NCBI GenBank assembly: GCA_038245785.1 | Contig: JBBRSB010000003.1 | Location: 96,001 to 160,000 of the forward strand | DNA from: Gloeobacterales cyanobacterium | Lineage (GTDB): Bacteria; Cyanobacteriota; Cyanobacteriia; Gloeobacterales; PMM-0068 | Direction of reading: 5' to 3' | DNA: 64,000 nt | Shown here: positions 29,356 through 38,289 of the stretch, piece after piece | Numbering within the stretch: position 1 is the first letter of the stretch | Layout: the number at the start of each line of letters is the position of its first letter | Program-made: the position numbers and the translations under genes | The notes under the pieces: model-generated | What the model saw: only the letters and a program-made list of their open reading frames with translations | The model's database searches: none | What the model was told of the DNA's origin: nothing

Positions 29356-29864
29356 TTACCTGCCCCTAAAAGTGCGTAGAGGAAGAGTACCCAGCGCTTT
29401 ATAGACAATGTAAATTTTCTATAAGTTAAAAGTAGGCTTTATGTTAGTTTTCCGTAAAGTCTAATGTGACAGCTAGTGTCAAATTTAGTTTTCTATAAGG
29501 TTGAGATATGGTTCTTTTCTGTGAGATTAAAGATTCTAAAGGCATTGCATTTATTGAAATTTACTAAAGCCTTACTGTGATTATTTTCAACCCTGACCAC
29601 TTGTGCAATAGCCTATTCACTCCTGCTTATGTCTCCCACTAGATTATCGCTTGCACAGAAATGGCTATAGTAGAGCAAACGCACAAGACTAAGTGCTGAT
29701 ACGTAGATTTTGTGGATGAAGCTTGTGATTTCTGGTGCTTTTTGCTACATTTATAAGTAATTCTACGGATATAATCGCCAAAAATCACGGTTTGGGTACT
29801 GGGTAGCAACAGGCTGAATGCCGGAAGGTATGAGTCTTGCCCTGCGGGCAATAAAGTCAAAGTT

Positions 29865-30197
29865 ATGTACGAGAATCTAGTTGGAATAGATATGCCTTCA
29901 AAATTTGCATTTTCCCTGTCTTCAACGGTGGTAGCTACTTCGGATCAAGTTTCCTCTGATTTAGCAGGAGAAGTAGTCATACTCGGTCTCAGTGCTGGTA
30001 TTTACTATGGTCTCAATGAAGTGGGAGCTAGCATCTGGAATTTGATTCAGCAGTCTAAGACCATCCAAGAAATTCAGGATGCTCTGCTGCAAGAATATGA
30101 CGTAGAAGCATCCCAATTAGAACAAGATATTTTCTCATTACTTTCAGAATTATCCGCTGTAGGACTGATCGAAATAAAAGATGAAGCTATTGTTTAA
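29865..30197 (+). CDS. Lasso peptide B1 / PqqD-family RiPP recognition element
   Basis: DLAGEVVIL...YYGLNEVGASIWNLI...L..EYDV...GLI. Alternative ATG at 29892. Confidence 0.92.
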   Translation: MYENLVGIDMPSKFAFSLSSTVVATSDQVSSDLAGEVVILGLSAGIYYGLNEVGASIWNLIQQSKTIQEIQDALLQEYDVEASQLEQDIFSLLSELSAVGLIEIKDEAIV

Positions 30198-30624
30198 GGT
30201 CCTGCACCTGCATAACAACGATCGCAACTTCCTTTTTAAAACTTTTATCTTGCTTAGCTTAGTGAGGTTGGGTCTGTGGCTGTTGCCCTTTCAAAAATTG
30301 CTGCACCTTTTAGGAAAGCTCGGTCACCCATCTCCTAAACAGCTGTTGAAATCCATTCCCTTAGATCGAATTGTTTGGGCCGTGAATCTGAATAGTTCTT
30401 ATACCCTGGGCAACGTCCAGTGTTTACCTCGGGCTTTGACAACGCAAGTACTCATGCGTAGCTATGGCTATGCGCCCCAACTGCGCATTGGAGTGACCAA
30501 GGGAGCACAAGGAAATCTAGAAGCCCATGCTTGGGTCGAGAACCAAGGACAGGTGGTGATTGGCTATCTCAGAGACTTTTCGCGATTTACGCCTCTGCCC
30601 TCTTTTAAAGGAAGCAAACTGTGA
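30181..30624 (+). CDS. Lasso peptide B2 leader peptidase (transglutaminase-like)
   Basis: CLPRAL, LRIGV and AHAWVE catalytic Cys/His motifs. Confidence 0.92.
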   Translation: MKLLFKVLHLHNNDRNFLFKTFILLSLVRLGLWLLPFQKLLHLLGKLGHPSPKQLLKSIPLDRIVWAVNLNSSYTLGNVQCLPRALTTQVLMRSYGYAPQLRIGVTKGAQGNLEAHAWVENQGQVVIGYLRDFSRFTPLPSFKGSKL

Positions 30625-32612
30625 GTGGCATTCTCGGTATTCGCTACCTGGATGGTCGTCCATTGGGCCGTGAGTACCTAGAACGCATGGTTGATATTCT
30701 TGCCCATCGTGGACCCGATGGAGCCGCTATTTGGTGTGAAGGTTCTATCGGTCTCGGGCATCGTATGCTCTGGACCACGCCTGAGTCTCTGTTGGAAAAA
30801 CAACCCTTGGCCGATCCGTCTAGCGAACTGACTATTACAGCAGACGCTCGTATTGATAACCGAGATGAACTAATCCATGACCTAAATCTTGATTCCTATC
30901 CGTCGGAAAAAATCACAGATAGCCAATTGATTTTGGCGGCTTACCATCAGTGGGGAGAAGACTGTCCCGATAAGCTTTTGGGTGATTTTGCCTTTGCTAT
31001 CTGGGATGGTCGCAAGCAACAGCTATTTTGTGCCAGAGATCATTTTGGCATTAAGCCTTTCTACTACTACGTGTCCAATCAAACCTTCGCTTTTGCCAGC
31101 GAAATTAAAGCCCTCTTTTGCCTGCCAGAAGTCCCGCAGCAGATCAGTGAGGTCAGGATTGGCGACTACTTAGCGTCCATGTTCCATGATGGGACGAGCA
31201 CCTCCTATCAGGATATCTTCCGACTTCCTCCCGCTCATCGCATGACCGTCCGTACTAGTGGCATCCAGCTACAACCTTATTGGGCTCTGAATCCCGATCG
31301 TGAAATACGTCTAAGCTCGGATGAAGCGTATGCAGTCAAGTTTCGAGAAATTTTTACAGAAGCCGTACGCTGTCGTCTGCGGAGTGCCTTTCCGATTGGT
31401 TCCACCTTAAGCGGCGGACTCGATTCTTCCTCCATTACCTGTGTGGCAAGAGGGCTCTTGTCCGAAAAGGGAGCGCAACCCCTACACACCTTCTCAGCCG
31501 TTTTTGACAAGCTCACGGAATGCGACGAACGCAGCTACATTAACGCTGTAGTTGCTCAGGGTGGGCTCGAACCACACTACATCCAGGCAGACCAGATCAG
31601 CCCTTTGAAAGATATAGAGCAAATGTTTTGGCATCAGGATGAAGCCTTTTATGCTCCTAACTGGTGTATGGGATGGGCCTTAAATAAGGCCGCGCATCAG
31701 CAAAAAGTTCGTGTTCTCTTAGATGGCTTCGATGGCGATACGACCGTTTCCCACGGGTATGGATACTTAAGTGAATTAGCCCGCGCCGGACGTTGGCTCA
31801 CTTTGATCAAGGAAGTCAAGGGCCTCGCTCATGCGCTGGATGAATCCTTCCCTCGGTGGCTTTGGAGCTATGTAAAGCACTTCGGCATCAAAACAACGGT
31901 CTCTAGATATCGGGTTCTTCGCCTACTTCATAGGATAGGATCTTTGCTAACGTCATTTTTCCGTCGCCCAAAGAGTCAACTTTCATCGTCAGCGGATTGG
32001 AGCGACCTTTTAGACCAAAAATTTGTTGCGCGGATCGGTATAGAGGAACGCCACCAGGCTTGGAAAAAAGTTCAAGGCCACTTAGGTTTGGACGAAAGAG
32101 AGCGCCACTATCGGAATATTGCGACCCAAGGCTTACCTCAATTTGCAGCCGAGACGATGGACAAGTCTATGGCAGCCTTTTCTCTTGAACCCCGTTATCC
32201 TTTTTGGGATAAGCGGTTGGTCGAGTTCTGCCTTGCTTTGCCCCCGGAACAAAAGCTGCACCTCGGATGGGACCGAGTCGTAATGCGCCGTGCGATGACC
32301 GATATTCTGCCTGTAGAAGTACAGTGGCGCAGAGGCAAAACAGACTTTTCATCGAATCTTGCTCATGGATTGCTGTTCTTTGAGAAAGAGTCTTTAGACC
32401 AGTTAATCCCGCATGGGTTAGGGAATCTTAAACAGTATCTAAATATCCCTGTCCTAGAGAAGATCTATCAACGATTTTTATCCTCAAAATCTCAGGAAGC
32501 AGGTATAGACGGGCGCAATATCTGGATAGTTGTTTCCCTTGCTTTGTGGCTGCAGCATAGAGCCCAAAGGAGACCTGAAAAAGTTAAGACAAAGGAGCTG
32601 AATCCAATGTGA
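30621..32612 (+). CDS. Lasso peptide cyclase (C protein, asparagine synthetase-like)
   Basis: SGGLDSS ATP motif, RDHFGIKP, DGFDGD. N-terminal Ser instead of the glutaminase Cys; flanked by B1/B2 and precursors. Confidence 0.92.
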   Translation: MSGILGIRYLDGRPLGREYLERMVDILAHRGPDGAAIWCEGSIGLGHRMLWTTPESLLEKQPLADPSSELTITADARIDNRDELIHDLNLDSYPSEKITDSQLILAAYHQWGEDCPDKLLGDFAFAIWDGRKQQLFCARDHFGIKPFYYYVSNQTFAFASEIKALFCLPEVPQQISEVRIGDYLASMFHDGTSTSYQDIFRLPPAHRMTVRTSGIQLQPYWALNPDREIRLSSDEAYAVKFREIFTEAVRCRLRSAFPIGSTLSGGLDSSSITCVARGLLSEKGAQPLHTFSAVFDKLTECDERSYINAVVAQGGLEPHYIQADQISPLKDIEQMFWHQDEAFYAPNWCMGWALNKAAHQQKVRVLLDGFDGDTTVSHGYGYLSELARAGRWLTLIKEVKGLAHALDESFPRWLWSYVKHFGIKTTVSRYRVLRLLHRIGSLLTSFFRRPKSQLSSSADWSDLLDQKFVARIGIEERHQAWKKVQGHLGLDERERHYRNIATQGLPQFAAETMDKSMAAFSLEPRYPFWDKRLVEFCLALPPEQKLHLGWDRVVMRRAMTDILPVEVQWRRGKTDFSSNLAHGLLFFEKESLDQLIPHGLGNLKQYLNIPVLEKIYQRFLSSKSQEAGIDGRNIWIVVSLALWLQHRAQRRPEKVKTKELNPM

Positions 32613-32642
32613 TAAGAAACTGAATACTTTTTCTGATAGTGA

Positions 32643-32697
32643 AGCTCATTGTCTTCTTGGCTGTTCTTTCAAGAGCATCTAAGAAAACAGCGAGCCT
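32643..32697 (+). promoter_or_regulatory. Conserved 5' stem-loop upstream of lasso precursor A1
   Basis: gctcattgtcttcttgg pairs with ctaagaaaacagcgagc (with G-U pairs); the same arms recur at 33015-33062. Confidence 0.6.
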
Positions 32698-32783
32698 AGT
32701 TGTCACCTATATTTAGGACCTTCTAGCTGGCTGTATCCCTGGCTCTCCACAGAGCTAATTAGCAAATCAATCAAGGAGAAACT

Positions 32784-32930
32784 ATGGCTTTTCAAAAGAA
32801 GTCTTACCTCAAACCTGAGCTAACCGTTCATGGTAATGTCGAAGTCCTAACCAAAGGAGGAAGTAGCGGTGGAAGCACAGACGCTTTCTTTCCGGTAGGC
32901 ACTCCGAAGGGTGGGGTGACCTTCTCCTAG
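32784..32930 (+). CDS. Lasso precursor A1: MAFQKKSYLKPELTVHGNVEVLTK|GGSSGGSTDAFFPVGTPKGGVTFS
   Basis: Manually translated (48 aa). AAGGAG RBS; leader YxxPxL..G and Thr(-2); core Gly1, Asp9, C-terminal Ser. Confidence 0.93.
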   Translation: MAFQKKSYLKPELTVHGNVEVLTKGGSSGGSTDAFFPVGTPKGGVTFS

Positions 32931-32954
32931 TGGAGTGAGCCAGACTAGATAAAT

Positions 32955-32991
32955 CAAGGATATCTAGAAGATAACAGTCTAGGTATCCTTG
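32955..32991 (+). terminator. 3' hairpin after precursor A1 (terminator or stabiliser)
   Basis: caaggatatctaga-N9-tctaggtatccttg; no clear U-tract. Confidence 0.5.
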
Positions 32992-33014
32992 CGAAATAGC
33001 TTGTCCTAATCATG

Positions 33015-33062
33015 AAGCTCCTTGTCTTCTTGGCTTGTTGCCGCTAAGAAAACAGCGAGCTT
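33015..33062 (+). promoter_or_regulatory. Conserved 5' stem-loop upstream of lasso precursor A2
   Basis: aagctccttgtcttcttggc...gctaagaaaacagcgagctt; same arms as copy 1 with a different loop. Confidence 0.6.
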
Positions 33063-33133
33063 AGTTGCCCCCGTATCCTGTGGCTTCTAGTTAACTGTAT
33101 CCACCCCCATATCAAATCGATCAAGGAAAAACC

Positions 33134-33280
33134 ATGGCTTTTCAAAAAAAGTCTTATCTCAAGCCTGAGTTAACCGTTCATGGCAATGTTGAAGTCCTGA
33201 CCAAGGGCTCATCCATTGGCAACTTTACGGATAGAGACTTTCCCACAGGGACTCCTCGAGGAGAGATAAGTTTCTCGTGA
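33134..33280 (+). CDS. Lasso precursor A2: MAFQKKSYLKPELTVHGNVEVLTK|GSSIGNFTDRDFPTGTPRGEISFS
   Basis: Manually translated (48 aa). AAGGA RBS; leader identical to A1; core Gly1, Asp9, C-terminal Ser. Confidence 0.93.
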   Translation: MAFQKKSYLKPELTVHGNVEVLTKGSSIGNFTDRDFPTGTPRGEISFS

Positions 33281-33322
33281 TAACTTTCTCCCTCTACGAG
33301 CCTAGCAATCCAAGCTAGGGAT

Positions 33323-33427
33323 ATTCTGGGGGTTCTGAGCTCAAAGTCCCCCAAAGTTGGGGGATTAGGGGGCGGTTCCAAGATCTGTATACCCCGTAGC
33401 CTTTTGAAGGGGGGAGCGGGGGGATCT
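33323..33427. repeat. Short dispersed GC-rich palindromic element (CCCCCAA..TGGGGG family)
   Basis: aaagtcccccaaagttgggggattagggggc; similar to 60245-60276. Confidence 0.65.
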
Positions 33428-33477
33428 TTGCAGGAAGTTTGGTCTAGTAAGTCTGGGTTTTAAGGAAAGTCGAAAGA

Positions 33478-34395
33478 ATGTACCACTACATCGCTTATGG
33501 TCTAAATATTTCCTCTGAGCTGTTGCTGCCAGAGTTAAAAATTTCATCAGTTGTGGAAGCAGATGTAGTTATCCAGTTGGGGAAAGTTAATTGGTTGCCA
33601 CCCGATCCTTGTCCCTCATGGAAGTACTTTCATTTTGACGGTGATACAGCTTACTTGTATTGGGATATTGTCGGCAAATTCCTAGTTCGTTCGGGTAGAG
33701 AGATTACTATCGAGCTGATTGAAGGAGTGGACGAAGGAGTCGTTCGTCTTCCCCTATTAGGGGCAGTCTTAGCGATGGTGCTTCATCAGCGCCAGTATTT
33801 GTTGCTCCATGGCAGTGCTGTTGCTATCAAAGAGCATGCCGTGATCTTTGCCGGAGCCTCAGGGCATGGTAAATCGACGATGGCCGCAACCCTCTATGGA
33901 CGGGGACATAGACTGATGGCTGATGATGTCTCTGCCATCAACCTTGAAAAGATAAGCAGACCGATGTTAATTCCAGGTTTTCCTCAAATTAAACTCTGGC
34001 CAGAAGCAGTCACGGCTGCCTTAGGGGATGATCCAGAAGCGCTTAAGAGAGTTCATCCAGACCTTGAAAAACGAGCCCGCCCCATGGCTAATGGTTTCTT
34101 GCAGGTACCGCTTCCCCTTGAGCGAATCTATCTACTCAGTGAAGGGCCAAGCGTGCATATCAAACCGTTGAAACCGCAAGAGGCGATCGCTAAACTAATT
34201 GGCAATTCTTTTATTCCAATGCTAGTGGGAGAAAAATTTATTCAAAGTAAGGGCACGGGTCTGCACATTTCCCAATGTGCGAATCTTGTCAAAAATGTTC
34301 CTATTTATACACTTGAGCGACCCTGTTCTCTTGAGCTGTTGTCAGATATAGCGCACTTGATAGAAGAAGATTTAGCGGCTCCCGTACAAATTTAA
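33478..34395 (+). CDS. HPr kinase-like lasso peptide kinase
   Basis: LHGSAV, Walker A GASGHGKST and LMADD motifs. Confidence 0.88.
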   Translation: MYHYIAYGLNISSELLLPELKISSVVEADVVIQLGKVNWLPPDPCPSWKYFHFDGDTAYLYWDIVGKFLVRSGREITIELIEGVDEGVVRLPLLGAVLAMVLHQRQYLLLHGSAVAIKEHAVIFAGASGHGKSTMAATLYGRGHRLMADDVSAINLEKISRPMLIPGFPQIKLWPEAVTAALGDDPEALKRVHPDLEKRARPMANGFLQVPLPLERIYLLSEGPSVHIKPLKPQEAIAKLIGNSFIPMLVGEKFIQSKGTGLHISQCANLVKNVPIYTLERPCSLELLSDIAHLIEEDLAAPVQI

Positions 34396-34398
34396 ACT

Positions 34399-36216
34399 AT
34401 GCGCCTAGACCAATTCTTAAAAAGTAAAATTCAAAAAGCTTCACGCTTTCTGCCTGCGCTCCGCTTAGTTTGGCAAAGCAGCCCTGGCTGGACGATCGCA
34501 CGCGTCATAATTTTAATCATTCTGGGAATCTTGCCTCTAATTTCGATTTATCTGGCCAAACTTATCGTAGATACGGTAACTATGGGTCTGATGGCGACGG
34601 ACAAAGCAGCTACTTTTTCTGAAATTTTAAAGTTACTGCTGTTAGCAGGAGTTGTCACAGTTATTAATGGTCTCTGTACATCCCTAAGCGAATTTGTGAA
34701 TACAGCCCATTCCCTACGGGTGACTGACTACATGCAGGGCATTATGCATGCTAAGTCAATTGAAGCAGACCTCGAATACTATGAGAATGCTAAATACTTC
34801 GATGCCCTACAGCGAGCGCAACAAGAAGCTCCCTACCGCCCGCCCCAAATTCTGAATCGTTTGGCCCAGGTTGGCCAGAACGGTATTTCTCTAATCACGA
34901 TGGTGGGTTTATTAAGCTCACTCCATTGGGGCATTATCGGGGTGCTCATAGTTGCGGCCCTGCCTGCTGTTTTTGTGCGCGTACATCAGTCTCGGATTAT
35001 GTATCAGTGGCAGCGGAAAAGAACGGGGATGGATCGGCAATCCATGTATTTAGGTTTTATGCTGACCGGAGACCTGTTTGCCAAAGAAATTCGACTATTT
35101 GGTCTAGGCTCTTTCTTTAGTGCATGGTATCTCCGTATTCGCCAACAGCTCTACGAAGAAAGATTAGACATTTCTAAAAGAAAAGCACTCGCAAATTTTC
35201 TAGCTCAGGGCTTTGCGGGCATTTTAATCTTTGCTATCTATAGCTTCATCATCTATCAAACGCTGCAAGGGGTTCTCCGTTTAGGAGATCTTGTTCTTTA
35301 TTACCAGGCTTTGCAACGAGGCCAGCTCAATATCAATGGACTTCTGACGGGCGTATCAGGTCTTTATGAAGATAATCTGTTCCTGACAAATCTATACGAG
35401 TTTCTAGACCTCAAGCCCACTATTGTGGATCCTACAGTTTCCAAGCCATTTCCCGAAACTATAAAGACAGGTATTGTCTTTAATCAGGTTAGTTTTCAAT
35501 ATTCCAACAGCACTCGTCAAGCACTCAGCAATATCAATCTTTGCATTGAACCAGGAAAAACTATTGCTTTGGTGGGAGAAAATGGCTGTGGAAAAACAAC
35601 CTTAATTAAACTTCTTTGCCGTCTGTACGACCCAACTTCTGGCAGTATCACCATTGATGGAATTGATATCCGTGAGTTCAAAATAGCCGATTTGCGTCGT
35701 CAAGTGGGTGTGATTTTTCAAGACTATGCGAAGTATAACCTCACTGCTTTTGAGAATATCTGGCTAGGGAACGTTGAGGTTCCGCGAGAGGACGAAAAAA
35801 TCATAGCAGCGGCCTATCGTTCTGGAGCGAATGAAGTGATTCAGCAGTTACCGCAAGGTTATGACACCGTGTTGGGTAAGTTATTCGACCAGGGAGAAGA
35901 GCTCAGCATCGGTCAGTGGCAAAAAATAGCTTTGGCCAGGGCCTTTCTGCGCTCCTCACAGCTAATTATTTTAGATGAGCCAACCAGCGCCATGGATCCA
36001 AAGGCGGAATACGAAGTCTTCAACCAATTTCACCAGTTGATTAAAGACCAGGCGGCTATTCTGATTACCCATCGTTTATCAACAGTAAAAATGGCAGACT
36101 GCATTTATGTCATGGATCAAGGTTCCATCGTCGAATCGGGCACCCATGATCAACTGATGCAGCAAAGAGGCTCCTATGCCCATTTGTTTGAAACCCAAGC
36201 CCAAAACTATCGGTGA
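34399..36216 (+). CDS. ABC exporter (TMD + NBD)
   Basis: AKEIRLF, GENGCGKTT, LSIGQWQK and LILDEPT motifs. Confidence 0.92.
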   Translation: MRLDQFLKSKIQKASRFLPALRLVWQSSPGWTIARVIILIILGILPLISIYLAKLIVDTVTMGLMATDKAATFSEILKLLLLAGVVTVINGLCTSLSEFVNTAHSLRVTDYMQGIMHAKSIEADLEYYENAKYFDALQRAQQEAPYRPPQILNRLAQVGQNGISLITMVGLLSSLHWGIIGVLIVAALPAVFVRVHQSRIMYQWQRKRTGMDRQSMYLGFMLTGDLFAKEIRLFGLGSFFSAWYLRIRQQLYEERLDISKRKALANFLAQGFAGILIFAIYSFIIYQTLQGVLRLGDLVLYYQALQRGQLNINGLLTGVSGLYEDNLFLTNLYEFLDLKPTIVDPTVSKPFPETIKTGIVFNQVSFQYSNSTRQALSNINLCIEPGKTIALVGENGCGKTTLIKLLCRLYDPTSGSITIDGIDIREFKIADLRRQVGVIFQDYAKYNLTAFENIWLGNVEVPREDEKIIAAAYRSGANEVIQQLPQGYDTVLGKLFDQGEELSIGQWQKIALARAFLRSSQLIILDEPTSAMDPKAEYEVFNQFHQLIKDQAAILITHRLSTVKMADCIYVMDQGSIVESGTHDQLMQQRGSYAHLFETQAQNYR

Positions 36217-37418
36217 GTAGTCTGATGAGCTCCCTAACCCAGTCTCCGCCTAAAGTCTCCGCGACGGCTATGCGTCCAGAAATCGAGCTGTTGCTCTGCG
36301 CGGCCCGCACCTACCTCGATTCTGCAACCGCTCAATGTATGAGCACGCTGCTCCAGGAAGATATGGATTGGACCTATCTAATCCACCTTGCAACCTGTCA
36401 CAAAGTGATGCCGCTCCTGTACCAGAGTTTAAGCATCATCGGTCTAGAAGCTGTCCCTCCAGCTATTCTCGCTCAACTGCACGCCCACTTCCGTCGCAAT
36501 ACGATGCAGAACCTGTTCTTAACCCAAGAACTAATCAAGCTCTTGGATCAGTTCAAGGAAAAGGACATCCCTGTTATTCCCTACAAAGGCCCCGTTCTAG
36601 CAGCTTTTGCCTACGGCAAGCTGTCCCTTCGTCAGAGTGGGGACTTAGACCTCCTCGTTTCTGCCGAAAATTATCCGCAGGCGAAGGCATTGCTCCTCGA
36701 ACGCGGTTATCAAATGCTGCTCGACAGCAAACATGAGAAGGCTCATCTGCAAGCTCAGCTATGGAATGACAAGCTGAGGGTCAGCGTAGACCTGCATTAT
36801 GGAATTCCGCCCAAGGAACTTCGACTCAACCCGGAGCGATTCTGGGAAAGCCTGCAGACCTTTTCTTTGAATGACAAAAAAATAGAAGTGCTCTCTCCGG
36901 AAGCCCACCTGCTGCTCCTGTGCGTGGATGGACACAAGGAAAGTTGGAATCAGTTGTTTAAACTCTGCGGTGTGGCCGCCATCATTCACGCCTATCCCAC
37001 GATGGATTGGGAAAAGCTCATCGCTTGGGCTGAACAGTTGAGGATGAAGCACATTCTCTGTATGGCTCTATTGCTCGCGAACGACTTGTTAGGCACCACC
37101 CTCCCTGAAGAAGTCTTGCAAAACGCCAAAGCCAGCTCTGTGAGGAGATTCCTGGTCAAGCATTGGCGTGAATATCTCTTCTCTGAGCCAGAGAGTCAGA
37201 CGGATGTTGCTCAAAAGAAACTTTTCCACCCGCAGACCATAGCACCCCTCTACCGCCTGTCTATGGCTGACCTCAAGAATATGATGATGCCAACGGAGGT
37301 CGACCAAGCATGGCTTCCCCTCCCGCCTGCTATCTCTTTTCTCTACTATCTGCTGCGACCGATCCGCTTAGTTTGGAAGTATGGACCCGTGTTTATCGAC
37401 CGTTCGGCGGCATCTTAG
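36213..37418 (+). CDS. Nucleotidyltransferase family protein (lasso-cluster type)
   Basis: YKGPVLA..AYG...R.SGDLDLLV and VDLH motifs; start overlaps the ABC stop (GTGA). Confidence 0.85.
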   Translation: MSSLMSSLTQSPPKVSATAMRPEIELLLCAARTYLDSATAQCMSTLLQEDMDWTYLIHLATCHKVMPLLYQSLSIIGLEAVPPAILAQLHAHFRRNTMQNLFLTQELIKLLDQFKEKDIPVIPYKGPVLAAFAYGKLSLRQSGDLDLLVSAENYPQAKALLLERGYQMLLDSKHEKAHLQAQLWNDKLRVSVDLHYGIPPKELRLNPERFWESLQTFSLNDKKIEVLSPEAHLLLLCVDGHKESWNQLFKLCGVAAIIHAYPTMDWEKLIAWAEQLRMKHILCMALLLANDLLGTTLPEEVLQNAKASSVRRFLVKHWREYLFSEPESQTDVAQKKLFHPQTIAPLYRLSMADLKNMMMPTEVDQAWLPLPPAISFLYYLLRPIRLVWKYGPVFIDRSAAS

Positions 37419-37434: not shown

Positions 37435-38136
37435 CTATTTTCTGGGTGCGAACAGCTTTTTGAGGGTTTCTAGATTTTTCCCCTGGATGGTGTAGCCAAC
37501 AAAGGGAAACGCGCAATCTTTTACGTCCAGAACCCCTTGCGTATCGTCCTTACAATAATTCGAATTCGCAATCCGGTCCGTGCGCAGTTGGGCTTTCACG
37601 GCTACTTTTTTGCTTGCTCGCTGGATCAGGTCGGCCACTTCTGGCGTGAGGGTCAGGCGGGCGGTGTCACCCTTGGGACTGCGGGACACTTCTGCTTTGA
37701 CAACGGACGGCGGCAACGTATCCCCATCGACTTCCAGAAATACCGTGGGCAGGTTTTGGCTAAAGGTATGGGTGCCATCAGCTGTGCCTTCTAGCCCGAT
37801 ATTCACATAGTAGGCACTCACTTTATTAGCTGGGTTAAAAGACCGACGAGCGGTGACCAGCAGCTTAGTCGTGTAGTCTTTGCCATCCTGCTTCAGGTTG
37901 ATTTCTCCTAAGGAGGCCCCCCCTGAGGTGTAGTAGGGCGTGCCATCGGACCGCAGCAGGAAATAGTCTCCTGGGGCTCCCTTGGGCAAGGGGAACGTCT
38001 GTATATTCGGATCTTCCTTGAGTGGGGTAGAAGCTATAGGCTCTGGCTTTTCTAAAGACACTAGAGGCGGTTCGCTTTGACAGGACGCAATCAAAGTTAA
38101 AAGAATACAAGCCAGGACAGATCTGTAGGTAAACAT
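37435..38136 (-). CDS. Hypothetical lipoprotein
   Basis: ATG 38136 gives MFTYRSVLACILLTLIASC with a lipobox-like Cys. Confidence 0.7.
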   Translation of the reverse strand: MFTYRSVLACILLTLIASCQSEPPLVSLEKPEPIASTPLKEDPNIQTFPLPKGAPGDYFLLRSDGTPYYTSGGASLGEINLKQDGKDYTTKLLVTARRSFNPANKVSAYYVNIGLEGTADGTHTFSQNLPTVFLEVDGDTLPPSVVKAEVSRSPKGDTARLTLTPEVADLIQRASKKVAVKAQLRTDRIANSNYCKDDTQGVLDVKDCAFPFVGYTIQGKNLETLKKLFAPRK

Positions 38137-38211
38137 AGTTCTAGCTTCCCATAGGAAAGGACACTCTAGTAAGCCTGTAAGCCAGATGCCGACCAAAATC
38201 CAGGCATTTCC

Positions 38212-38225
38212 GTAGTAGTTGTTAC
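38212..38225. promoter_or_regulatory. Second NtcA-box match
   Basis: GTA-gtagttgt-TAC. Confidence 0.5.
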
Positions 38226-38289
38226 AGACAGAGCGGACCACACTGGTAGGAAAACGTAACCTTGTTTGCAGGGCTTCATGCCTATTTCT

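What the first reader, a model, noticed from the sequence alone, without database searches (positions are those of the whole stretch)
32784..33280. Two unannotated tandem lasso precursors with an invariant leader and diversified core
Both 48-aa ORFs fall below the ORF-track cut-off, and their ATGs are 350 nt apart. The 24-aa leaders are identical in protein yet differ at 8 synonymous codons, a direct sign of purifying selection on a real RRE-binding leader (YxxPxL, Thr-2). The cores share 13 of 24 residues (consensus G-x-S-x-G-x-x-T-D-x-x-F-P-x-G-T-P-K/R-G-x-V/I-T/S-F-S), predicting a 9-residue Gly1-Asp9 ring and a long tail. Variation concentrates in the ring and loop, suggesting one enzyme set makes two functionally distinct lasso products.
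Basis: partly seen in the sequence, partly recalled or inferred. Interest (0 to 1): 0.85.

Follow-up and report, generated by a model that had tools for sequence, protein, structure and literature searches.

The report
Two tandem cyanobacterial lasso-peptide precursors
Two small neighbouring genes in a cyanobacterium encode precursors with the same leader and different cores. One shared enzyme set is predicted to turn them into two different knotted "lasso" peptides, which makes this a well-supported but ordinary new member of a known kind.

Summary
Two 48-aa ORFs lie at 32784-32930 and 33134-33280. Their 24-aa leaders are identical with 8 synonymous differences, and their cores share 13 of 24 residues.

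They sit in a complete cluster, B1-B2-C-A1-A2-K-D-N. The cyclase scores 949 bits on NCBIfam lass_lactam_cya. Both ORFs pass the lasso_leader_L3 cut-off.

Public collections hold 19 distinct 48-aa relatives that fall into an A1-like and an A2-like group. Cores are 17-24 of 24 identical within a group (20-24 for close members) and 12-14 of 24 between groups. Both genes are therefore maintained.

Asp9 and the C-terminal Ser are invariant. Asp9 is the only acidic residue in the A1 core, so a Gly1-Asp9 ring is the only option there.

They point to the paeninodin/pseudomycoidin type, with likely C-terminal Ser phosphorylation.

Tandem precursors are ordinary: 5 of 29 other cyanobacterial cyclase loci have 2-3.

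One unlisted feature is new. A covarying hairpin with no Rfam match lies 70-90 nt upstream of each precursor.

The parts
29865..30197 (+). B1, a PqqD-like leader-recognition (RRE) protein, 110 aa
   Evidence: Pfam PqqD E 1.1e-18. NCBIfam lasso_PqqD_Bac scores 74.7 bits, below its cut-off of 80.
30181..30624 (+). B2, the leader peptidase (transglutaminase-like), 147 aa; overlaps B1 by 17 nt
   Evidence: Pfam Transglut_core3 E 1.5e-22. NCBIfam lasso_biosyn_B2 scores 111.5 bits against a cut-off of 33.
30621..32612 (+). C, the lasso isopeptide-bond-forming cyclase, 663 aa; overlaps B2 by 4 nt
   Evidence: NCBIfam NF033535 lass_lactam_cya scores 949.3 bits against a cut-off of 525. Pfam Asn_synthase plus GATase_7.
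32643..32698 (+). Conserved hairpin, copy 1, ending 85 nt upstream of the A1 ATG
   Evidence: Folds at -23.9 kcal/mol, z -4.6. Model R1 scores 59.6 bits. Covariation shown.
32784..32930 (+). A1 precursor, 48 aa: leader residues 1-24, core GGSSGGSTDAFFPVGTPKGGVTFS
   Evidence: NF033521 scores 19.9 bits against a cut-off of 19. Orthologues P0001 and P0010-P0014.
32955..32991 (+). 14-bp hairpin just after the A1 stop codon; possible attenuator, function untested
   Evidence: strand folding centroid structure, z -2.8 for the 82-nt stretch.
33015..33063 (+). Conserved hairpin, copy 2, ending 70 nt upstream of the A2 ATG
   Evidence: Folds at -21.6 kcal/mol, z -4.5. Model R1 scores 55.5 bits.
33134..33280 (+). 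A2 precursor, 48 aa: the same leader, core GSSIGNFTDRDFPTGTPRGEISFS
   Evidence: NF033521 scores 20.6 bits against a cut-off of 19. Orthologues P0004, P0005 and P0015-P0017.
33328..33378 (.). One copy of a short dispersed genomic repeat, inserted between A2 and K; not part of the lasso system
   Evidence: 46 matches in the window's own genome. Depth spikes in three DNA runs.
33478..34395 (+). K, an HPr-kinase-like protein, 305 aa; predicted precursor kinase
   Evidence: Pfam Hpr_kinase_C E 2.4e-9. Aligns to the HPrK/P structure 1ko7 across the P-loop and the ADD motif. H111, K132, D149 and D150 are invariant in 31 aligned sequences.
34399..36216 (+). D, an ABC exporter (fused permease and ATPase), 605 aa
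   Evidence: Pfam ABC_tran E 2.8e-35. MsbA-like NCBIfam hits, all below their cut-offs.
36213..37418 (+). N, an NTP_transf_5 'uncharacterised nucleotidyltransferase', 401 aa; overlaps D by 4 nt
   Evidence: Pfam PF14907 E 7.6e-59. Syntenic homologues in L007, L013, L014 and L015.

Best explanation
A1 (32784-32930) and A2 (33134-33280) are two intact paralogous precursor genes inside a complete lasso-peptide cluster. Each is predicted to be cut after Lys24 and closed into a Gly1-Asp9 ring by the shared B1/B2/C enzymes, likely after the adjacent HPr-kinase-like protein phosphorylates the invariant C-terminal Ser.

**Shown here**
- Both ORFs are intact and have ribosome-binding sites.
- Their leaders match a curated lasso leader model.
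- The cluster encodes B1, B2, C, K, D and N.
- Both paralogues have conserved orthologues in other strains.
- Asp9, Phe12, Gly15, Thr16, Phe23 and Ser24 of the core are invariant.

**Inferred from known lasso biochemistry**
- B1 binds the YxxPxL leader.
- B2 cuts after the residue that follows Thr-2.
- C forms the isopeptide bond and traps the 15-residue tail.
- D exports the product.
- K phosphorylates the linear precursor on Ser24, and N may add a hexose to that phosphate. This step is inferred by analogy with paeninodin and pseudomycoidin.

The duplicated unit runs from a conserved upstream hairpin to the stop codon, so each precursor carries its own copy of that element. The function of the hairpin is open.
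For: **Cluster.** Pfam and NCBIfam assign B1, B2, C (949 bits against a cut-off of 525), K, D and N.

**Leader.** NF033521 is passed by both ORFs. Y8, P11, L13 and T23 are invariant in 19 distinct 48-aa relatives.

**Selection.**
- Leader: 8 synonymous and 0 non-synonymous differences, P about 1e-5 to 6e-5.
- Eleven of the 12 strain differences listed inside the two ORFs are synonymous. The list is partial, with 89 rows not shown.
- Cores are 21-24 of 24 identical among close A1-type proteins (17 of 24 for P0002 and P0003) and 20-24 of 24 within the A2 group, against 12-14 of 24 between groups.

**Tandem pair in other strains.**
- One DNA contig of run X2 spans both genes with 70 differing letters and 4 gaps over 927 nt, about 92% identity.
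- P0011 with P0017, and P0003 with P0005, share contig lengths of 190129 and 3594. That each pair lies on one contig is an inference.

**Ring.** Asp9 is the only acidic residue in the A1 core and is invariant in all relatives.

**Synteny.** C-A-K with D and N recurs in L007, L008 and L013-L015.

**Kinase.** H111, K132, D149 and D150 are invariant in 31 sequences. This fits the His-Lys-Asp-Asp motif reported for lasso kinases (review PMC9266682, passages).

**C-terminal Ser.** It is present in all 19 distinct 48-aa proteins and in all 6 locus relatives.

**Literature.** PadeK and PsmK phosphorylate the C-terminal Ser of the precursor, and PsmN is needed for hexose on the phosphate (PMC6993621 and PMC9266682, passages).
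Against: - There is no direct evidence of translation, cleavage, ring closure or threading.
- NF033528 lasso_cyano is not passed: 26 and 24 bits against a cut-off of 33.
- B1 scores below the cut-off of its lasso-specific NCBIfam model, 74.7 against 80.
- Kinase homologues flank at least 24 of 29 other cyanobacterial cyclase loci, yet precursors end in Ser in only 8 of the 25 loci where a precursor was found. The rule 'kinase means C-terminal Ser' therefore does not hold across cyanobacteria, and the target site here is less certain.
- Homology of N to PsmN was not tested by sequence; only the family description matches.
- The leader's synonymous divergence is lower than the core's (pS 0.50 against 0.87), so some of the leader identity may come from gene conversion.
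- RNA evidence is weak. Three short contigs at depth 2-3.5 from one metatranscriptome of a relative cover A1, A2 and the start of K. DNA carry-over cannot be excluded.
Confidence: 0.8

Rival explanations
1. Only one of the two genes is productive. The other would be a redundant or decaying duplicate that gives no distinct product.
For: In the more distant syntenic loci (L007, L008, L012-L015) only one precursor was found between C and K, so one copy suffices for the system. Nothing shows translation of either copy.
Against: Both ORFs are intact and have ribosome-binding sites. Each has its own orthologues with 20-24 of 24 core residues conserved. The listed between-strain differences are synonymous in both: 5 of 6 in A1 and 6 of 6 in A2. 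With synonymous sites at pS 0.5 to saturation, the duplication is old, and an unselected copy would have lost its frame.
Confidence: 0.06
2. The identical leaders reflect gene conversion that homogenises the hairpin-to-leader part of the repeat unit, not purifying selection on an RRE-binding leader.
For: Synonymous divergence is lower in the leader (8 of 16.0 sites) than in the core (16 of 18.3 sites). The upstream hairpin is also highly similar between the two copies.
Against: Eight differences have accumulated in the leader and none changes the protein, and conversion alone does not explain that. Across 19 distinct relatives the leader varies only at positions 2, 3, 4, 9, 14, 15 and 18, and never in Y8, P11, L13 or T23. 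In pairs inferred to share a contig (P0011/P0017 and P0003/P0005) the two leaders differ at 2 residues, so homogenisation is not continuous. The two processes are not exclusive.
Confidence: 0.12
3. The peptides are made as lasso peptides, but the kinase does not act on the C-terminal Ser. It would act on another residue or another substrate, and the mature products would be unphosphorylated or modified differently.
For: Kinase homologues accompany many cyanobacterial lasso cyclases whose precursors do not end in Ser. Many of those precursors carry an internal Gly-Ser-x-Asp instead. K scores far below the cut-offs of all NCBIfam HPrK-related models.
Against: In this clade the last residue is Ser in 25 of 25 sequences. 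The catalytic His, Lys and Asp-Asp residues are invariant. K and N are syntenic with the precursor in all longer related loci. The two characterised kinase-bearing clusters phosphorylate the C-terminal Ser.
Confidence: 0.3

Closest known systems
Paeninodin (Paenibacillus dendritiformis C454) and pseudomycoidin (Bacillus pseudomycoides DSM 12442): phosphorylated lasso peptides, glycosylated as well in pseudomycoidin
   Same: Both have a split B1/B2, a C cyclase, an ABC exporter and an HPr-kinase-family kinase in the cluster. The precursor ends in Ser and the ring has 9 residues: position 1 to an inner Asp in paeninodin, and Ala1-Glu9 in pseudomycoidin. The psm cluster also has an uncharacterised NTP transferase, PsmN (passages of PMC6993621 and PMC9266682).
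   Different: The phylum is Cyanobacteria, not Bacillota. Residue 1 is Gly in most members here and Ala in two relatives. The gene order is B1-B2-C-A-A-K-D-N with two precursors. Nothing here is shown experimentally.
NCBIfam NF033528 'lasso_cyano' precursor subfamily, NF033521 'lasso_leader_L3' and NF033535 'lass_lactam_cya' cyclase
   Same: The cyclase is a clear member (949 bits). Both precursors pass the leader domain model. Cyclases of this family are over the cut-off in 54 of 401 sampled genomes of the class, the window's own genome included.
   Different: Both precursors fall below the lasso_cyano cut-off, 26 and 24 bits against 33. Their cores are short at 24 residues, end in Thr/Ser-Phe-Ser, and are unlike most other cyanobacterial cores seen.
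Lasso clusters with several precursors (caulonodins, caulosegnins, xanthomonins, astexins-2/-3)
   Same: One enzyme set serves two or three tandem precursor genes that have different cores (review PMC7549694, passage).
   Different: Those are proteobacterial clusters with a fused B protein and no kinase. Here 5 of 29 other cyanobacterial loci also carry 2-3 tandem precursors.

Membership tests
Lasso peptide precursor (class II, split-B type) | Leader with the Y-x-x-P-x-L recognition motif and Thr at position -2 | tested here: met
   Y8, P11, L13 and T23 are present in both ORFs and invariant in 19 distinct relatives. NF033521 lasso_leader_L3 scores 19.9 and 20.6 bits against a cut-off of 19.
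Lasso peptide precursor (class II, split-B type) | Small residue at core position 1 and Asp or Glu at position 7-9 for the isopeptide ring | tested here: met
   Gly1 and Asp9 are present in both ORFs. Asp9 is invariant in all relatives and is the only acidic residue in the A1 core.
Lasso peptide precursor (class II, split-B type) | Encoded next to B1 (RRE), B2 (peptidase) and C (cyclase) | tested here: met
   B1, B2 and C lie directly upstream on the same strand. The same order occurs in related loci.
Lasso peptide precursor (class II, split-B type) | Mature product has a threaded (lariat-knot) topology | not testable with these tools
   Needs MS/MS, NMR, and carboxypeptidase or heat tests.
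Lasso peptide precursor (class II, split-B type) | Leader physically binds B1 | not tested
NCBIfam NF033528 lasso_cyano precursor subfamily | Score at or above the curated cut-off of 33 bits | tested here: not met
   26.0 and 24.0 bits, matching the leader part only.
Paeninodin/pseudomycoidin-type phosphorylated lasso peptides | HPr-kinase-family kinase in the cluster with conserved His, Lys and Asp-Asp | tested here: met
   Pfam Hpr_kinase_C. Alignment to HPrK/P structure 1ko7. H111, K132, D149 and D150 are invariant in 31 sequences. The motif is as named in the review passage.
Paeninodin/pseudomycoidin-type phosphorylated lasso peptides | Precursor ends in Ser, the phospho-acceptor | tested here: met
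   Ser48 is present in both ORFs, in 19 of 19 distinct 48-aa relatives and in 6 of 6 locus relatives.
Paeninodin/pseudomycoidin-type phosphorylated lasso peptides | Phosphate (with or without hexose) actually present on the product | not testable with these tools
   Predicted monoisotopic masses are given.
Paeninodin/pseudomycoidin-type phosphorylated lasso peptides | N protein homologous to PsmN | not tested
   N is Pfam PF14907 'uncharacterised nucleotidyltransferase'. The paper describes PsmN only as belonging to a family of uncharacterised nucleotidyltransferases. No PsmN sequence was at hand.

The most novel reading that the evidence does not exclude
Each precursor gene carries its own copy of an undescribed structured RNA element: a hairpin with an invariant base (UUGU...ACAG, followed by CGA in the eight training copies) and a freely covarying tip, with no Rfam family. 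The element was found only in front of lasso precursor genes of this clade. It would be a dedicated post-transcriptional control or processing signal that sets precursor supply independently of the enzyme genes. The 'hairpin-leader-core' cassette would then be the unit that duplicates and diversifies. The two products would be the first phospho- or phosphoglyco-lasso peptides from a cyanobacterium.
Probability: 0.25. Interest if true: 0.6.

Novelty: new member of a known kind. Interest (0 to 1): 0.4.

Why it matters
- In the full-text library searched, no paper uses 'cyanobacterial lasso peptide' or the similar phrases tried, and none contains these core sequences. This library lacks most subscription journals. 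These peptides would therefore be among the first cyanobacterial lasso peptides to be made.
- The cluster offers a natural two-substrate test of how tolerant one B1/B2/C/K set is to changes in the ring and loop.
- The invariant scaffold (G1, D9, F12, P13, G15, T16, F23, S24) against the variable positions gives a ready map for engineering.
- The kinase and nucleotidyltransferase would extend C-terminal phospho(glyco)sylation of lasso peptides from Bacillota to Cyanobacteria.
- The upstream hairpin is a candidate new cis-element for RiPP precursor expression.
- None of this changes how lasso biosynthesis is understood.

Tried and rejected
- **Binding of the leader to B1.** Complex prediction never ran. 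The queue was full or the retry was not yet open, so no binding test exists.
- **Full list of strain differences.** Only the partial list was used.
- **Whole-genome searches with hairpin model R1.** A search in 54 cyclase-bearing genomes and one in 5 chosen genomes found nothing useful. Both missed the known positives of L043 and L039 (34 and 24 bits). They say nothing about distribution.
- **Rfam.** No family matched at E up to 1 in 32400-33700.
- **Promoter and terminator consensus scan, 29500-33600.** It found fewer sites than in shuffled sequence and none near the precursors, so no start site can be named.
- **RNA evidence.** One metatranscriptome (X6) has three short contigs of a relative over A1, part of A2 and the start of K, at depth 2-3.5. 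This is only a hint, because DNA can be present in such a library. The parts without cover are not evidence of anything.
- **PDB profile search with the precursor alignment.** Only chance-level hits were returned. Chains under 20 residues are not in that set, so many solved lasso peptides could not appear.
- **False hits.** L009-L011 from the genome scan lie inside large unrelated ORFs. L003 in the window's own genome is noise, E 0.55 with a stop inside.
- **L007.** It lies in a 1.1-Mb MAG labelled Alphaproteobacteria. No phycobilisome gene was found there, which is inconclusive for so small a bin.
- **HIP1 motif.** It is not enriched in the window: 1 copy.
- **Papers not held.** Zhu et al. 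2016 (PMC4919450) and Tietz et al. 2017 (PMC5391289). They are known here only through passages and reference lists of other papers.
Full report
**1. The observation**

The window holds two 48-codon ORFs on the + strand, at 32784-32930 and 33134-33280. A codon-by-codon comparison gives these figures:
- The first 24 codons encode the same peptide, MAFQKKSYLKPELTVHGNVEVLTK, and differ at 8 single bases, all synonymous.
- The last 24 codons share 13 residues and differ at 37 bases in 21 codons.

In this leader only 24-30% of random single-base changes would be synonymous. Eight of eight therefore has a chance of about 1e-5 to 6e-5. AAGGAG and AAGGAA lie a few bases before the two ATGs.

The repeat is longer than the ORFs. 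The two units also align upstream of the ATGs, with 99 of 131 aligned upstream bases identical plus 46 gap columns. Similarity stops near the stop codons. No further copy exists in the 5.0-Mb genome.

**2. Context**

The two ORFs lie inside one same-strand gene row.

| Gene | Coordinates | Assignment | Key score |
|---|---|---|---|
| B1 | 29865-30197 | PqqD-like | Pfam PqqD E 1.1e-18 |
| B2 | 30181-30624 | lasso_biosyn_B2 | 111.5 bits, cut-off 33 |
| C | 30621-32612 | lass_lactam_cya cyclase | 949 bits, cut-off 525 |
| A1, A2 | 32784-32930, 33134-33280 | precursors | NF033521 19.9 and 20.6 bits, cut-off 19 |
| K | 33478-34395 | Hpr_kinase_C | E 2.4e-9 |
| D | 34399-36216 | ABC exporter | ABC_tran E 2.8e-35 |
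| N | 36213-37418 | NTP_transf_5 | E 7.6e-59 |

B1/B2, B2/C and D/N overlap by a few bases, and K and D are 3 nt apart. Both small ORFs pass NCBIfam's lasso_leader_L3 domain model. Both fall below the lasso_cyano subfamily cut-off, 26 and 24 bits against 33.

The genome is cyanobacterial, with 13 phycobilisome-family matches. This agrees with earlier notes of the scan on this genome.

**3. Relatives**

A word-indexed search of 5.8 billion proteins gave 9 clusters of 48-aa proteins. Their listed members bring the total to 19 distinct sequences, counting the window's two.

They fall into two main groups:
- An A1-like group: P0001 and P0010-P0014 have 21-24 of 24 core residues identical to A1, and P0002 and P0003 have 17.
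- An A2-like group: P0004, P0005 and P0015-P0017 have 20-24 of 24 identical to A2.
- Identity between the groups is 12-14 of 24.
- P0006-P0009, P0018 and P0019 are further relatives.

Each core type is thus conserved among orthologues although the paralogues have diverged. That is the pattern expected for two maintained products.

Evidence for the tandem pair in other strains:
- P0014 and P0015 are identical to A1 and A2 and have NCBI among their sources.
- P0011 with P0017, and P0003 with P0005, have the same longest-contig lengths, 190129 and 3594. This suggests the pair recurs in other assemblies. It is an inference, because the contigs could not be fetched.
- Directly, a 1344-nt DNA contig of run X2, from a different study than the likely source run X1, covers 32400-33326 with 70 differing letters and 4 gaps. 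It carries both genes.
- Of the 12 strain differences listed inside the two ORFs, 11 are synonymous.

More distant relatives came from genome and metagenome scans: L007, L008 and L012-L015. All keep the order C-A-K with D and N where the contig is long enough. Each shows one precursor.

**4. Distribution across the class**

- The cyclase family is over its cut-off in 54 of 401 sampled genomes of the class, counting the window's own.
- At E up to 1e-100 it is found in 29 of 169 genera.
- It was found in none of the 13 other sampled genomes of the same order, including 2 of the same genus.
- The precursor was likewise not found in those two congeners.
- The cluster is therefore patchily distributed. 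Horizontal acquisition is a reasonable inference.

**5. What the sequences say about the product**

- In the 19 distinct proteins the leader varies only at positions 2, 3, 4, 9, 14, 15 and 18. Y8, P11, L13, T23 and K24 never vary. In the more distant loci position -1 is Gln and position -2 is still Thr.
- Invariant core positions are D9, F12, G15, T16, F23 and S24. G1, P13 and G19 are nearly invariant. Two relatives have Ala1.
- A1's core has no acidic residue other than Asp9, so a Gly1-Asp9 nine-membered ring is the only possibility there. A2 also has Asp11 and Glu20, but these are not conserved.
- The characterised kinase-associated lasso peptides also have nine-membered rings: position 1 to an inner Asp in paeninodin, and Ala1-Glu9 in pseudomycoidin (PMC6993621, passages).
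- Differences between A1 and A2 are spread over the ring (4 of 9 positions), positions 10-15 (3 of 6) and positions 16-24 (4 of 9). Three of the last four are conservative. Only the radical changes concentrate in the ring and loop.

**6.

- K aligns to HPr kinase/phosphorylase structures over the P-loop and the following ADD (1ko7, E 6.7e-5).
- In an alignment of K with 30 homologues from the fetched loci, H111, G129, G131, K132, S133, D149 and D150 are invariant.
[quoted passage not shown] It also reports that PadeK acts on the linear precursor at the C-terminal Ser (PMC9266682, passages).
- In pseudomycoidin, PsmK (poly)phosphorylates the C-terminal Ser. PsmN, an uncharacterised NTP transferase, is required for one or two hexoses on the phosphate (PMC6993621, passages).
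- In this clade the last residue is Ser in 25 of 25 sequences, and K and N are syntenic.

I therefore predict C-terminal Ser phosphorylation, possibly followed by hexosylation.

Counter-evidence must be stated. Kinase homologues flank at least 24 of the 29 other cyanobacterial cyclase loci. Only 8 of the 25 loci with a detected precursor have one ending in Ser. Many others carry an internal Gly-Ser-x-Asp near the C-terminus. The paeninodin rule thus cannot be transferred wholesale, and I put this step at about 0.55-0.6. Homology of N to PsmN rests only on the family description.

**7. How unusual is a tandem pair?**

Not very. Among the 29 other highest-scoring cyclase loci (1.5 kb either side), 25 had at least one precursor detectable with a profile built from this clade. 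Five had two or three in tandem: L019, L025, L026, L034 and L036. These are lower bounds.

In L034 and L036 the cores are nearly the same and the leaders differ more, so the window's pattern is not universal. Multi-precursor lasso clusters are also well known in Proteobacteria, for example the caulonodins, caulosegnins, xanthomonins and astexins (PMC7549694, passage).

**8. Selection or conversion?**

| Region | Synonymous | Non-synonymous |
|---|---|---|
| Leader | pS 0.50 (8 of 16.0 sites) | dN 0 |
| Core | pS 0.87 (16 of 18.3 sites) | pN 0.39 |

The duplication is old. The lower synonymous divergence of the leader, together with the well-kept upstream hairpin, leaves room for some gene conversion. 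Eight silent changes with no replacement, and the invariance of the motif residues across the family, still require purifying selection.

**9. A conserved hairpin in front of every precursor**

- Position: 70-90 nt upstream of each ATG, in the window (32643-32698 and 33015-33063) and in all six related loci.
- Anatomy: an invariant base (5' UUGU paired with ACAG 3', flanked by a short outer stem) with a tip whose sequence differs completely between lineages while staying paired.
- Structure I proposed: 95.3% of cells pair against 39-51% when the partner is slid, and 6 of 16 pairs show changes on both sides.
- RNAalifold on ten sequences independently finds the same helix, 14 pairs with 8 showing compensatory changes.
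- The two window copies fold with z -4.6 and -4.5.
- A covariance model finds exactly two matches in the window's own genome, both here.
- The model also finds two new instances, in L043 (34 bits) and L039 (24 bits), each again just upstream of the precursor.
- Rfam has no match.
- Only about five lineages are sampled, so the covariation counts few events.

Its role is open. It could be:
- a processed or protective 5' end of the precursor transcript;
- a terminator-like insulator after C;
- a recognition site for a regulator.

No consensus promoter or terminator was found nearby. The metatranscriptome contigs of a relative are too few to decide.

**10. Novelty**

Full-text searches found no paper with the phrases tried for cyanobacterial lasso peptides and none with these core or leader strings. 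A profile search of PDB chains gave only chance hits. One paper describes a predicted, uncharacterised lasso cluster in a Cyanocohniella MAG (PMC9332814, passages). The pseudomycoidin paper mentions a Stanieria cluster with a PsmK homologue. The library lacks most subscription journals, so absence in print is not established.

**11. Verdict**

The finding is real and correctly read: a new member of a known kind. Added value comes from the predicted phospho(glyco)sylation, the demonstration that both paralogues are kept in related strains, and the undescribed upstream hairpin.

Noticed in passing
window 32643-32698 and 33015-33063; L007 5866-5923; L008 2390-2446; L012 1067-1124; L013 250-307; L014 3596-3666; L015 1047-1117; L043 1380-1427 (-); L039 1351-1406 (-): A conserved, covarying hairpin lies 70-100 nt upstream of lasso precursor genes of this clade. 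Its base is invariant (UUGU/ACAG) and its tip varies while staying paired. It has no Rfam match, and its only two copies in the window's genome are these. Function unknown.
   Followed up: partly
window 33328-33378 (between A2 and K): A short dispersed repeat containing a CCCCCAAAGTTGGGGG palindrome. The 85-nt query around it has 46 matches in the window's own genome, and depth spikes there in three DNA runs. It looks like a small mobile or REP-like element inserted in the A2-K spacer.
   Followed up: partly
L018-L040 (precursors listed): Most other cyanobacterial lasso precursors next to a kinase homologue do not end in Ser. They share a Gly-Ser-x-Asp motif some 5-10 residues before the C-terminus. 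The window's clade ends at a Ser. The kinase target in those clusters may be an internal Ser, or a C-terminal follower may be removed.
   Followed up: no
L034 709-1192 and L036 700-1192: These tandem precursor pairs show the opposite pattern to the window: nearly identical cores with more diverged leaders.
   Followed up: no
L007 (contig of a MAG labelled Alphaproteobacteria): A full D-B1-B2-C-A-K-N cluster with the same hairpin, 56-71% identical in C, K and D to the window's proteins (B1 and B2 about 50%, N about 32%), sits in a 1.1-Mb bin labelled Alphaproteobacteria. The K match there is in two reading frames, residues 1-176 and 183-304, suggesting a frameshift. Mis-binning or transfer was not resolved.
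   Followed up: partly
window 32955-32991: A 14-bp hairpin lies directly after the A1 stop codon. Related loci have two strong hairpins after their single precursor. These may be attenuators that set the ratio of precursor to downstream genes.
   Followed up: no
window 37435-38241 (-): A 268-aa ORF directly after N on the opposite strand has no Pfam or NCBIfam match.
   Followed up: no
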